Source: Octopus sinensis (Eukaryota). From it: DNA of 64,000 bases. The stretch covers positions 4,526,001 to 4,590,000 of the forward strand of contig NC_043013.1 of assembly GCF_006345805.1 (NCBI RefSeq), read 5' to 3'. The notes under the pieces were generated by a model, which saw only the letters and a list, made by a program, of their open reading frames with translations, had not been told where the DNA came from and made no database searches. Both the position numbers and the translations under genes were made by a program. Shown one piece after another: positions 34,161 through 63,480 of this stretch. The first letter of the stretch is position 1; every line of letters begins with the position of its first letter.

Positions 34161-34279
34161 GCTTACGGTCATATCACTTTGAAAACACCGGTTCTCGTCC
34201 GATCACTGAAGTTAAGCAACATCGAGCCTACTTAGTACTTAGATGGGTGACCGCTTGGAAAACCTAGGTGCTGTAAGCA
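34161..34279 (+). rRNA. Dispersed full-length 5S rRNA-like copy (probable pseudogene or SINE3 head)
   Basis: 119 nt: gcttacggtcatatcac...ttctcgtccgatcactgaagttaagc...ttagtacttagatgggtgaccgc...gtgctgtaagc. Terminal helix and box A/C are recognisable. It is a single copy with no T4 terminator. Confidence 0.88.
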
Positions 34280-57983: not shown

Positions 57984-60591
57984 TTATATTCTATAAATAT
58001 GTACAGTAGCTAAGTAACATTGGATCCAAATTTTGGAACAATGCCATCAATTTTGGAGGAGGGGTTAAACTGATTACATCGATCCCAGTACTCAACTGGT
58101 ACTTATTTTATCGATCCCGAGAGGGGGCATAGGCAAAATGGACCTCGGCGGAATTTAAACTAACAACTTAAATACGGACGAAATGCCGCAAAGTATTTTG
58201 CCCAGTACGCTAACGATTCTGCCAGCTCGCCGCCTTACAGTAGCTAAATGATAGATAACAACTCAAAAGGTAGACGAAGCGGGTGAAGAACAAAGAATTT
58301 ATTGGTGAGTATGGTTTCGAAAGATATTGTAACTGCTTGACTTAAAATATGACCTGGGATCGATTTCTTAGACTAACCCAATCAAATAAAGAAGTAAATG
58401 AAAACGTAACAATATGCTGATAATATTTTGGACTGCAAATTTACAATATTGACAATATACAACATTCACCTCTATTTGGGATCGTTTCATCCCGAATTCT
58501 ATTTCACATTACTATTTCTATTTCATATTTTTATACTGTTGAATGAGTTTATTAATTTGCATCTTTAAAGTTTACATCTTTTTTAATTTATTTCTATGAC
58601 AAGAACCGAGTTTAACTGCCTAATGAGTGGCATCGAGAGTTAATGAGAAGCATTCAGAATGGATTGATTTTCTCAACATCAAAATTGACAAGCTTTCCGA
58701 ATTATTTGTATAACATTAGGCAAATGTCGCAGAATAGAGGTACAGTGCGTCTAGATTTACGATTGGAGCTATGTTAATAATGATCTTGCGCTAAGTATGA
58801 ACTTCTTGACTTCATGTATTATAAATTTATAATTTACATATTCTTTCTTATTTGGAAAGCAGTTATTTTACAAACTTTGGGGAGCATTCAACTAATCGAA
58901 TAATGCGAAAGCAAAATGACATGCAAATATCTTACTTAATTCTTAAACTTTCAAATATACTAACAAGTCTAAATGATATTAAATAATAATGGAAATACTG
59001 CATTAAATGATAAAAAAAAAAGAAATATAATACCGAAATAAGATAACAAAATGAGTTTGACTATTTTCATAATCTTATTGGCAAATATCTCACAGCCTAC
59101 AACTTCCAACCGAAAACCAGAACAAGTGAATTTCAACGCGTTCTGGAAACCGGTGCAAAATTTCTTATAAATTTATAATGAATATTGCTTTAATTGGCTT
59201 AAATAAGAACGTGTTGGTTTTAGAGATATTAGATCTTTTAGAAACAATAGCGCTCACAAAGTATGTGGGTTGACAAACAATACTTAGTTTTGTGCCTCTA
59301 TCTTTCGAATTTTGGCGAATAAATACATTTTTCGTTATGCACTGGAATTTATTTCATAAACAAATTATTGATGCGTTACACAATGTTTTGATGTTGTAAC
59401 GTACCTTATAAGAAATCTGCGTTTTTGGCCGACACTACGTTCGTAAATAAACTAAATTCAAATTGTGAATAACCATCTCTTTTACATAGTTTCTTTAAGA
59501 GCAGAAAAGAAGGATCAGTTTGGCTGGTTGCACTTTTTTCTGCATCTCTTTCGGAATAAGCATCTGTTGCATGTGACCGCAGAGACTGTAAATGTATTCT
59601 AAAGTATACTTTAAATCAAACTGGGTTTACTCTCTCGCAAAGATCAATTTCTGCAGGTATAAACTCAGAAGCAACTATGTAACTAAGAGACTGGCTTCCC
59701 GAACATGTAATTTAAGTTCGATCCAACTGTTCGGTACCTTGGAAAAGTTGCTTCCGTCGTATGTAACTAGCGTTCTGTGATTGGAATTTGTCGAAAAACT
59801 GTACGAAAACCCGAAAACGGTGTTTTCAAACCAAAAAGTAACCTCAAATAGAGCCCAGACTACGTGGCTTCAAAGCCAACCTCTTGACTACATATGGCTA
59901 TAGTTGCATCCATACTTGCACAAGTCCAACTTTGCAAGAAACGAGATTGGTTCATACAGTAAATTTCCTTTGGAATAAATCCAAGCTGTTTTTTATAACA
60001 ATATCCCTGAGTTCAGAGTTGCACATGGGGCACGATATCAGTGTTTCTGTGATAATATAACGAATAAGCAATGGACCCTTTAAAAAATCTCTAACCAACG
60101 ACATTGTTCACAAAATGCGATATGGAACTTAAAATCAATATTTTCAATGAAAGAGTAAAAAGGTGATTAGTTAAGTTTTCTTAGATGAATATATATTATA
60201 CAAATGGGTATTTTCATATTGTAAATATATTAAGAAAATATCATTAAATAAAACTACAATATAATAAATCCTTCAGAAAATAGCATTGGAAATTGAATCC
60301 TTAGATTATTTAAGGAAGATTTACTATTGGAATGCAAACATTTGGGAATTGGTCATTCTCTGTGATAAGTGAATGATGCTTATTAATTTTATCTCGTAGC
60401 AATTAGGAATGTTGAAAGCAACATGTTCTTACTATCATGAGCATTTATACCGCAACAGGATCCTCATTTTTCAAAATTTTGCGTTGTTACACGCATACAG
60501 AAATCAATAAAATTGAATATAATTAAATTTCTATCTAATGCTAATTTTTTTTTTTCATTTTCCATTTACAGATTTCAACAAATCAATAAAT

Positions 60592-60767
60592 ATGCAGAAA
60601 ATCATCATCACTCTTCTAGTTGTTGGGATTATGTTTGCTATGCAGGTTTCCTGCCAGGAAAGTATGCTTGCACCTCCCAACCGTCCCTCTGAATTCAGAA
60701 GTCCCGAAGAGCTTAGAAAGTATCTTAAAGCCCTCAATGAATACTATGCCATTGTTGGTCGACCCAG
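60592..60767 (+). CDS. NPF: Neuropeptide F/Y precursor, first coding exon (signal peptide plus most of the mature peptide)
   Basis: Acceptor ttttccatttacag|60572 and ATG at 60592. It encodes a signal peptide MQKIIITLLVVGIMFAMQVSC followed by QESMLAPPNRPSEFRSPEELRKYLKALNEYYAIVGRPR (PP-fold, YY..GRPR). The donor AG|gtaaaa falls at phase 2 of the last Arg, the conserved NPY/NPF intron position. Confidence 0.97.
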
Positions 60768-61020
60768 GTAAAACGTTACTATTTCATTGTTAATATTTTC
60801 TTCGAAACAAAAATTCAAGTATCACAATTACAATAGTTGAGAGTTTTATACAAATGAAATGTTTAGACATGTACAGTGGTTGCGAGTTTTAAACTTGTAT
60901 ACAAGTTTCTTGGAAAAGCTGTTCAGCTTTGCCAGTACTGAGAGCGCTCAGGAGCAAAAATGTATTCTCGCATTAAGAAGAGTCTGTTTGTTGTGAGTTT
61001 ACATTACAGCTTTTAGTGGA

Positions 61021-61435
61021 AGTAACACCCCCTCCCCATTGTGGTTAGCCATGATAAGATGGATTCTATACTTTACATTATCGAGCGATTACTGTTTCAA
61101 TCTCATTCTGAGATTTAATTATGCTTACTGTTCGTTTTTCGGCATCAGTGGCAGACGCCATTAGAAAAACTTATATCTATTTGCAAAGGAGCCTTCTCTT
61201 TCATCGCTACCTCGTGGTTACCGCCCGTTGACGAGGGACAACAATCCCGAAACTAGTTCGAGCGTATCACTCAGGCTTGCGAGGAAGGGATAGCCTCCCT
61301 TTGCAAATACTCCAAGGACACAGATATTGTGTCTAAAGCCAGCTAGATACGAAGATCTCTTGGGGCTATAAAGCTACAGTAACACCCCCTCCCCAATGTG
61401 GTTAGCCATGATAAGATGGCTTCTATACTTTACAT
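61021..61435 (+). mobile_element. 357-bp-period retrozyme-like insert in the NPF intron
   Basis: 58-bp direct repeats at 61021-61078 and 61378-61435 (2 mismatches) enclose a hammerhead motif and self-complementary arms. Confidence 0.7.
61214..61270 (+). ncRNA. Type I hammerhead motif (C3U core, GUU site)
   Basis: gtggttac-CGCCCG-TTGACGA-GGGA-caacaa-TCCC-GAAA-CTAG-TT-CGAGCG-tatcac. Confidence 0.75.
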
Positions 61436-61989
61436 AATCACGCTAAAGTTTTTGTGAAAGTCATGAGTGTTACATATGATCACCACCATCACCACCCCCA
61501 TCGAAATTACGGAGCCTTTGTACCTAATATTAAGAAGCCAGTATATTGAATTTATAAACTTAAAATAATATCCATCTTTGACTATATCTCATTACTAATA
61601 TTATCTCTGATATTTTGAACGTAAATATAATGATTGTGGTAACATCTAGCTAATTGAAGTTAAATAATTACTGAAACCTCATTAAGTAACTCAAATGTTT
61701 CAGGGCAACTGGCATAACAGGACAAACAGATGAGAGCTAGCGAAATGGATGACAATTATCCTGGCCAAAGATCACCCGATTTGGCCATTGGAATGTATTG
61801 AGACGGATAATTGCTTTTGTTTAGCTCCAGATTAGCCCATACAGACGTTCCAGTTGTGATTATCCAATCCATTCAATCTAAGATACACCTGTTATACTAT
61901 CGCCCAGTTGTCGAATTCCTTAAAATATAACCCCAAATCCTTTAAAATTCCAGCAAATCAGTATTATTTCATTATCGCATAGTCAATTT

Positions 61990-62342
61990 GGAAGCACTCC
62001 GTCGGTTACGACGACGAGGGTTCCGGTTAAATTAAAGTGTAAGTGGCTGAGCACTCCACAGACACGTGCACCCTTAACGTAGTTCTCGGGGATATTCAGC
62101 GTGATACAGAGAGTGACAAGGCCGGCCCTTTGAAATACAGGTACAACAGAAACAGGAAGTAAGAGTGAGAGAAAGTTGTGGTGAAAGAGTACAGCAGGGA
62201 TCACCACCAACCCCTGCCGGAGCCTCGTGGAGCTTTTAGGTGTTTTCGCTCAATAAACACTCACAACGCCCGGTCTGGGAATCGAAACCGCGATTCTATG
62301 ACCGCGAGTCCGCTGCCCTAACCACTGGGCCATTGCGCCTCC
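61990..62342 (-). mobile_element. SINE family C, tail variant 3 (intronic)
   Basis: Head and core are shared with 24765-25109. Confidence 0.88.
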
Positions 62343-62601
62343 ACATCGCAGAGTCAATATCGCTTCACTTATTGAGGTGGCGTTATTCTTGCAGCGAAGC
62401 GCTAAAATATTACAGCTGTCTTCACTATTTTTTCCAGCCTATTTTTCATTCGTATTTTATACAAAATTTAATAATTAATATTGACCAGATATTCATGTAA
62501 AATGATTCTGCCTAAACAACAATTGTGAAATAGAAAATCTATTTTGTATTTGTAACTTCGATGACTATGTTAATGTAAAAATATCTTCTCTTTTAATTAA
62601 G

Positions 62602-62675
62602 GTTTGGACGCAGTGTCAGCAAAAGAGCTGCCTCTAATACTTTCGCTGAAGCACTGACTTCCAAAAGAAATGACG
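62602..62675 (+). CDS. NPF: Neuropeptide F/Y precursor, second coding exon
   Basis: Acceptor cttctcttttaattaag|G completes the Arg codon, then FGRSVSKRAASNTFAEALTSKRND, giving RPRF-amide (G-R signal). The probable donor is G|gtaata at 62676. The final exon was not identified. Confidence 0.93.
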
Positions 62676-63267: not shown

Positions 63268-63480
63268 TTTGTACTTGTTTCAGTCATTTGACTGCGGCCA
63301 TGCTGGAGCACCGCCTTTTAGAGTGGTGAAAGAGTACAGCAGGGATCACCATCTCCTGCCGGAGCCTCGTGGAGCTTTTAGGTGTTTTTTTCGCTCAATA
63401 AACACACACAACGCCCGGTCTGGGAATCGAAACCGCGATCCTCCGACCGCAAGTCCGCTGCCCTAACCACTAGGCCATTG
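63268..63480 (-). mobile_element. Chimeric SINE: family C head/core joined to a family A tail
   Basis: 63320-63480 matches family C and 63268-63319 matches the family A 3' end, in the same orientation. Confidence 0.8.

What the first reader, a model, noticed from the sequence alone, without database searches (positions are those of the whole stretch)
61021..61435. Sense-strand retrozyme-like unit with a hammerhead inside the NPF intron that splits the RF-amide
Seen: starting 253 nt after the donor, a 357-nt unit is bounded by 58-bp direct repeats. It contains an HHR (61222-61264) nested in complementary arms (tatttgcaaaggag at ~61178 pairing with ctccctttgcaaata at ~61295). This is the pattern expected from reverse transcription of slightly more than one round of a structured ~357-nt circular RNA. 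Established: metazoan retrozyme monomers are a few hundred nt long, and intronic HHRs occur in other animals. Inference: cleavage of the pre-mRNA here would separate the peptide from its Phe-Gly-Arg amidation exon and could modulate NPF output. The C3U core and GUU triplet suggest that this copy is attenuated or dead.
Basis: partly seen in the sequence, partly recalled or inferred. Interest (0 to 1): 0.72.

Follow-up and report, generated by a model that had tools for sequence, protein, structure and literature searches.

The report
Wobble-core retrozyme passenger in NPF intron
This insert is one of hundreds of near-identical copies of a small non-coding jumping element that likely landed in a neuropeptide gene's intron by chance; its altered hammerhead-ribozyme core is shared by its whole young sub-family, which would mean such elements keep spreading with a cutter predicted to be weakened.

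Summary
In detail: a 415-bp insert (61021-61435, 1.16 copies of a 357-nt unit) with one type I hammerhead lies sense-strand in the NPF intron. It belongs to a young dispersed family (572 exact matches to one 32-mer). Copies end at two fixed 3' sites; 24 of 31 back-to-back insertions use one of each, the Penelope 'tail' footprint. So a Penelope-type enzyme likely pasted it; the partner was not found.

The U3/GUU core is not decay of this copy. It is sub-family-wide, derived from a compensated U3-A8/GUC ancestor, and a U3-G8 wobble also marks a second lineage (41 of 43).

Regulation of NPF is unsupported: this copy has one hammerhead with a minimal helix III, so it cannot excise a circle, and contigs of four runs splice straight across the intron. 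Cleavage was not tested; 5' ends show no pile-up at the cut site.

A Tx1-type LINE inserts site-specifically just before the hammerhead in other copies.

The parts
60572..60767 (+). NPF exon: ATG at 60592, signal peptide and mature peptide up to R-P-(AG of Arg)
   Evidence: contigs begin at 60572
60768..62601 (+). Phase-2 GT-AG intron inside the Arg codon of RPRF, 1834 nt
   Evidence: exon-exon joint skipping 1834 nt in 4 of 4 runs laid
62602..62675 (+). NPF exon with Phe-Gly-Arg amidation signal
61021..61435 (+). Retrozyme insertion, 1.16 units, 3' end at fixed family site E1, 5' end a variable truncation; no clear target-site duplication
61021..61377 (+). One full 357-nt unit (phase set by the truncation point)
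61378..61435 (+). Overrun into a second unit (the 'direct repeat'); differs from the first copy at 2 of 58 positions, both private to the first copy
61078..61127 (+). Segment between the two fixed 3' ends E1 (unit 57-62) and E2 (unit 101-109), with a predicted stem-loop; equivalent of the Penelope 'tail' (inferred)
   Evidence: PMC11167929
61172..61180 (+). TATA-like run about 25-30 nt before unit position 183; candidate promoter (inferred, untested)
61199..61216 (+). Empty target site of a site-specific Tx1-type LINE (the 18 bp duplicated in other copies); this copy has one private change in it
61210..61271 (+). Type I hammerhead: helix I 61222-61227/61259-61264 with one C-A mismatch, core U3 61228 and G8 61233, helix II 61235-61248, helix III one pair plus palindromic CUAG, triplet GUU, predicted cut after 61258
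61178..61309 (+). Long stem enclosing the hammerhead (arms 61178-61191 and 61295-61309)

Best explanation
The insert is a 1.16-unit copy of a young, dispersed, hammerhead-bearing repeat family that was likely pasted into the NPF intron by a Penelope-type reverse transcriptase and is likely a passenger there. Shown: the family, two fixed 3' ends, variable 5' ends, back-to-back arms, AT-rich landing sites, a sub-family-wide U3-G8/GUU core, and splicing across the intron. Inferred: the enzyme nicks AT-rich DNA, starts copying at a fixed internal site (E1 here) on an RNA that is continuous across the hammerhead cut site (a ligated circle or an uncut tandem transcript), runs 415 nt and stops. Inferred: this copy cannot release a unit-length circle, since it has one hammerhead, and should cut the pre-mRNA poorly, since its helix III needs a second hammerhead and its core carries a wobble. 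Inferred: the sub-family spread after the core changed from U3-A8/GUC to U3-G8/GUU, so full-strength cutting is not needed for spreading.
For: Family: 88 matches among 40 scored of 1998 candidates, best 95-98% identical; 572 exact matches to a 32-mer. Ends: in 60 loci taken in genome order, 83 of 95 arms end at E1 (47) or E2 (36); 24 of 31 back-to-back insertions pair E1 with E2, one E2+E2, none E1+E1, six have another end; in a differently chosen set 17 of 22. This matches the two initiation sites and one-sided tail of a Penelope element in vitro (PMC11167929). 34 of 66 fixed ends abut TA repeats. Core: 95 of 100 listed cores identical to this copy; 24 of 100 listed have A8 when A8 is allowed; 16 of 22 such cores read GUC, 5 GUU, 1 is cut off, and the G8 copies nest inside the A8 group with a GUU/A8 copy as sister (support 89/86 and 93/85). 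A second lineage has U3-G8 in 41 of 43 and falls on a separate branch. Hammerhead mutants do not block Penelope insertion in vitro (PMC11167929). A one-pair helix III with palindromic loop cuts only 6% in an hour as a monomer in axolotl (PMC7229834). Exon-exon joint in 4 of 4 runs; two of them also hold contigs bridging the insert's 3' junction.
Against: No autonomous partner was found: the one abundant Penelope-type family examined (8 loci) shares no nucleotide similarity with the unit. The tail is about 46 nt against 30-40 in published elements. No measured rate for a U3-G8 core was found (PMC1986816 not held), so 'weakened' rests on the known need for a 3-8 pair. Helices I and II differ by compensatory changes between the two U3-G8 lineages, which allows that the ribozyme still works. 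Tree support for the order of core changes is moderate. No empty allele was seen, so neutrality is not shown by polymorphism. Contigs cannot measure how much pre-mRNA is cut.
Confidence: 0.8

Rival explanations
1. The intronic hammerhead has been co-opted: it cuts NPF pre-mRNA between the peptide exon and the amidation exon and so tunes NPF output.
For: Sense orientation and position are as described. The insertion is bridged by contigs under three organism labels (X1, X12; X8, X9) and no empty allele was listed. Loop 1 and loop 2 contact residues are kept.
Against: Young multi-copy element, 6 private changes in 357 nt against the family majority, one of them in the extended helix I; single hammerhead with a dimer-type helix III; wobble core; spliced joint in 4 of 4 runs. 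About 43% of Xenopus retrozyme copies lie in introns (10.64898/2026.07.22.740005), so an intronic copy needs no special cause. One landing has even odds of being sense.
Confidence: 0.07
2. The U3-G8/GUU hammerhead is a working, slowed ribozyme (active as a dimer or with Penelope protein); source arrays release circles that are the true templates, and the wobble is a tuned state rather than a loss.
For: U3-G8 marks two separate expanding lineages whose helices I and II differ by compensatory changes. 11 of 83 arms exceed one unit and many extend upstream of the candidate start at unit 183, as a circle allows. The unit folds compactly as a circle (z about -3.1). The anole Penelope hammerhead cuts only with protein (PMC11167929).
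Against: No 5'-end pile-up at the cut site genome-wide: of 18 matches none has a foreign base directly before the cut, and starts spread over 228-237. Long tandem arrays exist that could serve as linear templates (about 3.9 units in L007). Eight of nine Xenopus dimers did not cut in vitro (10.64898/2026.07.22.740005). This rival concerns the family and is compatible with the intronic copy being a passenger.
Confidence: 0.4
3. The unit is only the terminal repeat (pLTR plus tail) of an autonomous Penelope element, and the copies are 5'-truncated stubs of that element, not a self-standing retrozyme.
For: Same insertion footprint as Penelope elements; median arm is 158 nt and 60 of 83 arms lack a whole hammerhead. 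In L053 a Penelope RT fragment lies directly 5' of a copy.
Against: Long arms run on into the previous unit, never into an ORF, in the loci mapped. The L053 fragment is broken and only 85% identical to its nearest relatives, so it looks older than the copy beside it. The hammerhead is canonical type I, not the minimal pLTR type (PMC4209133).
Confidence: 0.1

Closest known systems
Metazoan non-LTR retrozymes (coral, Mytilus 350-390 bp, axolotl 330/350 bp; PMC7229834, parts 2-3 of 6 and passages read; vertebrate survey 10.64898/2026.07.22.740005, parts 1-3 of 5 read)
   Same: Non-coding unit of 357 nt, canonical type I hammerhead, weak palindromic helix III as in axolotl HHR_Amex1, compact fold, dispersed and tandem copies.
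   Different: Sub-family-wide U3-G8 wobble with GUU; mostly sub-unit, two-armed insertions with two fixed 3' ends; this copy has one hammerhead and fails the survey's 'active' criterion; cleavage and circles untested. 'Octopus' and 'cephalopod' do not occur in the main text of PMC7229834.
Endonuclease-bearing Penelope-like elements (PMC11167929 parts 1-2 of 4 read; PMC3846280 and PMC8557442 passages; PMC4209133 part 1 of 4 and passages)
   Same: Inverted 5'-truncated arm, extension on one end only, two fixed start sites around a stem-loop, AT-rich and TA-repeat targets.
   Different: No ORF; tail about 46 nt rather than 30-40; canonical rather than minimal hammerhead; no sequence link to an autonomous element found.
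Natural hammerhead core variants: U3-A8 (PMC3088659 section 8; PMC4209133) and a saltern variant written U3-U4-G5-A6-C7-G8-A9 with a two-base insertion (PMC7151607, passages)
   Same: The ancestral sub-families here carry U3-A8; the window's core letters equal those of the saltern variant.
   Different: Here U3-G8 has no insertion and is fixed in two expanding multi-copy lineages; I found no such case.
Target-specific Tx1-clade LINEs: Tx1L in Tx1D, Keno in U2 snRNA, Tx1-Mar in Mariner-N4 (PMC4494074, passages)
   Same: APE-RT ORF2, zinc-knuckle ORF1, fixed site in a multi-copy element, tandem stacking, occasional U2 gene target.
   Different: The target is a hammerhead retrozyme, about 30-37 nt before the core, across several diverged families, and the U2 insertions are at the gene's 5' end. 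Not found in print; already noted by this scan.
Ultraconserved intronic hammerheads of amniotes (HH9/HH10; seen only as a reference title and as Rfam HH9; otherwise recalled)
   Same: Type I hammerhead in the sense strand of an intron of a neural gene.
   Different: Those are single-copy and deeply conserved (recalled); this is young, multi-copy and carries private changes.

Membership tests
Non-LTR retrozyme | Repeat unit of about 150-450 bp without coding capacity | tested here: met
   357 nt; no open frame of 150 aa or more in the window-copy locus L001
Non-LTR retrozyme | Canonical type I hammerhead fold | tested here: met
   HH9 match below gathering score; 13 of 16 pairs covary across 19 homologues
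Non-LTR retrozyme | Intact catalytic core (Watson-Crick 3-8 pair) | tested here: not met
   U3-G8 wobble in this copy and its sub-family; met in the U3-A8 and C3-G8 relatives
Non-LTR retrozyme | Tandem units with two or more hammerheads | tested here: inconclusive
   Met for the family (L006, L007); not met for this copy, nor for any of 83 arms in the genome-order sample
Non-LTR retrozyme | Highly self-paired monomer | tested here: met
   z = -3.26 linear, 0 of 100 shuffles as good; z about -3.1 circular, 0 of 60
Non-LTR retrozyme | Self-cleavage and accumulation as circular RNA | not testable with these tools
   Only contigs were offered; no 5'-end footprint at the cut site
Penelope-mobilised insertion | Inverted 5'-truncated arm with a tail on one end only; two fixed start sites | tested here: met
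   24 of 31 and 17 of 22 back-to-back insertions pair E1 with E2; the window copy is single-armed and ends at E1
Penelope-mobilised insertion | AT-rich or TA-repeat target | tested here: met
   34 of 66 fixed ends abut TA repeats
Penelope-mobilised insertion | Sequence shared with the pLTR of an autonomous element | tested here: inconclusive
   No similarity to 8 loci of one abundant family; other Penelope clades not examined
Target-specific Tx1-clade LINE (in other copies) | More than 20% of copies flanked by one target type, with target-site duplication | tested here: met
   22 of 30 directly followed by a retrozyme, 6 more by the duplicated site and another LINE; 18-bp duplication
Target-specific Tx1-clade LINE (in other copies) | RT groups with Tx1 in a tree | not testable with these tools
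   No named Tx1 reference among 44 homologues; endonuclease matches L1-type structures
Conserved regulatory intronic hammerhead | Single copy, conserved across distant species | tested here: not met
   Hundreds of copies; distant species not held

The most novel reading that the evidence does not exclude
Twice in this genome a retrozyme lineage traded a working U3-A8 hammerhead core for a U3-G8 wobble and then expanded. Retrozymes would thus spread through Penelope machinery with cutting switched down or off, the ribozyme being a tunable brake rather than the engine, while a Tx1-type LINE rides the same unit as landing pad and promoter.
Probability: 0.35. Interest if true: 0.65.

Novelty: new variant of a known kind. 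Interest (0 to 1): 0.42.

Why it matters
Whether animal retrozymes need self-cleavage and circles to move, and which enzyme moves them, is open (stated as unresolved in 10.64898/2026.07.22.740005). This family gives a natural allelic series in one genome, U3-A8/GUC, U3-A8/GUU and U3-G8/GUU, with hundreds of young copies and mapped start sites, so both questions can be tested with a few constructs. The NPF location itself is probably incidental.

Tried and rejected
1. Copy-specific decay of the core: rejected.
2. The 58-bp repeats as LTRs or target-site duplication: rejected; they are unit overrun. A search for a duplication around the insert gave only a 7-9 nt match overlapping the element's own end, 14 nt off the 5' junction.
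3. A cleavage footprint: 4 of 83 arms began at unit 237-238, all of the G8 haplotype, but the genome-wide pattern test gave 18 matches with starts spread over 228-237 and none with a foreign base at 238. Rejected as a pile-up.
4. A run-off footprint at the candidate start: 0 of 83 arms begin at unit 175-195.
5. Autonomous partner: one Penelope-type family with long ORFs has no similarity to the unit. The L053 junction is probably chance.
6. Empty allele: none listed in four DNA-type runs; X4 and X7 contigs stop at or before the 5' junction and decide nothing.
7. Expression: no RNA holder listed on record. The four runs laid are guessed to be RNA; contigs give no ends, strand or level, so contig depth was not used.
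8. Hitch-hiking as the cause of the LINE association: unlikely, since 19 of 20 LINEs are intact at the 5' end and 18 have retrozyme on the 5' side with an 18-bp duplication.
9. RNA editing as the source of A8-to-G: A>G 11 against T>C 4 in the G8 group, not seen in the other three groups, small numbers mixed with sub-family variants; inconclusive.
10. C4:92366701, a loose pattern hit, showed no similarity to the unit.
Supplements of the bioRxiv survey and of the other papers were not read and may list cephalopod families or U3-G8 cores.

Full report
1. Observation. The direct repeats (61021 and 61378, spacing 357), the NPF gene structure (exon to 60767, GT-AG intron 60768-62601 inside the Arg codon of RPRF), the enclosing stem and a type I hammerhead (Rfam HH9, 28 bits, E 8.9e-5, below the gathering score) are all present as described.

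2. The family. The genome holds hundreds of close copies: 88 matches among the 40 scored of 1998 candidates, the best 95-98% identical, and 572 exact matches to one 32-mer. I mapped 60 loci taken in genome order from the 100 listed places. Of 95 arms, 47 end at unit 57-62 (E1), 36 near 101-109 (E2) and 12 elsewhere. 5' ends are scattered. Of 31 back-to-back insertions, 24 pair E1 with E2, one is E2+E2, none E1+E1 and six have another end. The search pattern forces at least one arm to reach unit 54, but not to stop at two points. A set chosen by the hammerhead and by best hit gave 17 of 22. Sister families end at homologous places. Half of the fixed ends abut TA repeats (34 of 66). This is the published Penelope footprint: an inverted truncated arm with a tail on one end (PMC3846280 and PMC8557442, passages), traced in vitro to two internal start sites (PMC11167929, parts 1-2 of 4). 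The window copy is a single arm from E1 that ran 415 nt, so its 'direct repeat' is overrun; 11 of 83 arms exceed one unit. An abundant Penelope-type family with long RT-GIY-YIG frames is present, but 8 of its loci share no sequence with the unit, so the partner is inferred, not identified.

3. The hammerhead. Across 19 homologues from the families recovered, 13 of 16 pairs change on both sides and 93% of cells pair, against 29-45% for slid controls (related sequences inflate the shuffle control). The 3-8 pair reads U-A in 7, C-G in 6 and U-G in 6. The window's U3-G8/GUU core is the sub-family norm: 95 of 100 listed among 137 matches, with 2 differing only at position 7, 2 C3 (one locus) and 1 GUC (the pattern required G8). 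Allowing A8 gives 289 matches, 24 of 100 listed with A8. I fetched 22 of those 24: 16 GUC, 5 GUU, 1 cut off. In a tree of the sequence 3' of the ribozyme the G8 copies nest within the A8 group, with an A8/GUU copy as sister (support 89/86 and 93/85, not starred). The likely order is U3-A8/GUC, then GUU, then G8. The G8 group is the least diverged (median 1.3% from its majority, n = 20, against 2.5%, 3.8% and 2.9% for the others; groups were chosen by exact patterns or best hits, so this is a rough ranking). A second lineage has U3-G8 in 41 of 43 matches with GUC in 42 and lies on another branch. U3-A8 is a known active variant (PMC3088659 section 8). I found no measured rate for U3-G8; that it is weaker follows from the established need for a 3-8 pair and is a prediction.

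4. Does cutting leave a trace? Four of 83 arms began at 237-238, next to the predicted cut. A genome-wide pattern that shows junctions between 228 and 239 returned 18 matches, none with a foreign base directly before the cut, with starts spread from 228 to 237 (it misses copies with C at 227 or a change in 239-260). So there is no pile-up. Many arms read through the cut site, so the template was a ligated circle or an uncut tandem transcript; these data do not separate the two.

5. The NPF question. This copy has one hammerhead, so it cannot excise a monomer. Its helix III is one pair plus a palindromic loop, the type that cut 6% in an hour as a monomer in axolotl (PMC7229834). It carries 6 private changes against the family majority. 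Contigs of four runs from up to four studies, guessed to be RNA, join the exons across the 1834-nt intron; two of these runs also hold contigs that bridge the insert's 3' junction. DNA-type contigs bridge the 5' junction under two organism labels, one of which may be the assembly's own sample; no empty allele was listed. The insert is therefore shared among close relatives and compatible with normal splicing. Partial cutting cannot be excluded from contigs.

6. A parasite of the family. In other copies a 5.5-kb LINE (zinc-knuckle ORF1, APE-RT ORF2) sits at unit 178|179. Of the 30 best 3' ends among 40 scored, 20 are followed by this family at position 179, 2 by sister sub-families, 6 by the duplicated site and another LINE (one of these only probably), 1 by a U2 snRNA gene and 1 by nine target bases and unrelated DNA. 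Of 20 loci read on the 5' side, 19 are intact there, 18 have retrozyme upstream, and the duplication is typically 18 bp. The U2 insertion carries about 15 nt of retrozyme target at its 5' junction, suggesting the LINE RNA starts in the retrozyme. For a related LINE, 18 of 30 3' ends precede hammerheads of this or diverged homologous families, 1 precedes U2, 2 are tandem and 9 show no target. The window's site is empty. Three paper searches found no such target in print, but this scan had noted it. Following the note that the site is a transcription start, I found a TATA-like run 25-30 nt upstream in two families and no run-off footprint.

7. Verdict. A real retrozyme-type insertion with a Penelope footprint, most likely a passenger in the NPF intron (0.8). 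The regulatory reading is unlikely (0.07). What is new here is the recurrent, lineage-wide wobble core; whether it is dead or tuned is open and directly testable. Papers seen: 10.64898/2026.07.22.740005 parts 1-3 of 5; PMC7229834 parts 2-3 of 6 and passages; PMC4209133 part 1 of 4 and passages; PMC11167929 parts 1-2 of 4; PMC3088659 section 8 and passages; passages of PMC8557442, PMC3846280, PMC7151607, PMC4494074, PMC6389622, PMC3884650, PMC2837043; PMC12988792 term search only (no hits). No supplements were read.

Noticed in passing
L062:1888-7410, L151-L170, L071-L100: Young 5.5-kb Tx1-type LINE inserted at one site of the retrozyme with an 18-bp duplication, mostly full length, sometimes stacked in tandem; 29 exact junction matches in the genome.
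   Followed up: yes
L087:1766-1959 / L161; L127: Two related LINEs inserted at the 5' end of U2 snRNA genes; the L161 copy carries about 15 nt of retrozyme target sequence at its 5' junction.
   Followed up: partly
L128-L150: Diverged homologous retrozyme families with U3-A8, C3-C4-G8 and canonical cores, each preceded by a related LINE; they share the two-end layout.
   Followed up: partly
L156, L164, L167: The two copies of the LINE's target duplication differ at a known polymorphic base, and the upstream and downstream haplotypes do not match; donor-derived flank, recombination or assembly misjoin.
   Followed up: partly
L068:4093-4512 (about 4 kb beyond the window's right end): Two-armed copy of a sister sub-family, 80% identical, with U3-A8/GUC core.
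   Followed up: yes
L201-L208: Very abundant Penelope-type element (10413 candidates) with frames up to 835 aa and a CxxC linker; no similarity to the retrozyme.
   Followed up: partly
L053:1275-2310: Broken Penelope RT fragment directly 5' of a retrozyme copy inside a microsatellite; chimera or chance.
   Followed up: partly
window 61989-62345 and 63323-63480: A very abundant SINE-like repeat in the same intron and the next; three runs show a joint going back 350 nt (62343 to 61994), suggesting tandem copies elsewhere.
   Followed up: no
window 34161-34279: Isolated 5S rRNA match, 97.9 bits.
   Followed up: no
window 61007-61020: 14 nt between a short match to the element's 3' end and the 5' junction weakly resemble the reverse complement of the unit's end; possibly a vestigial inverted arm.
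   Followed up: no
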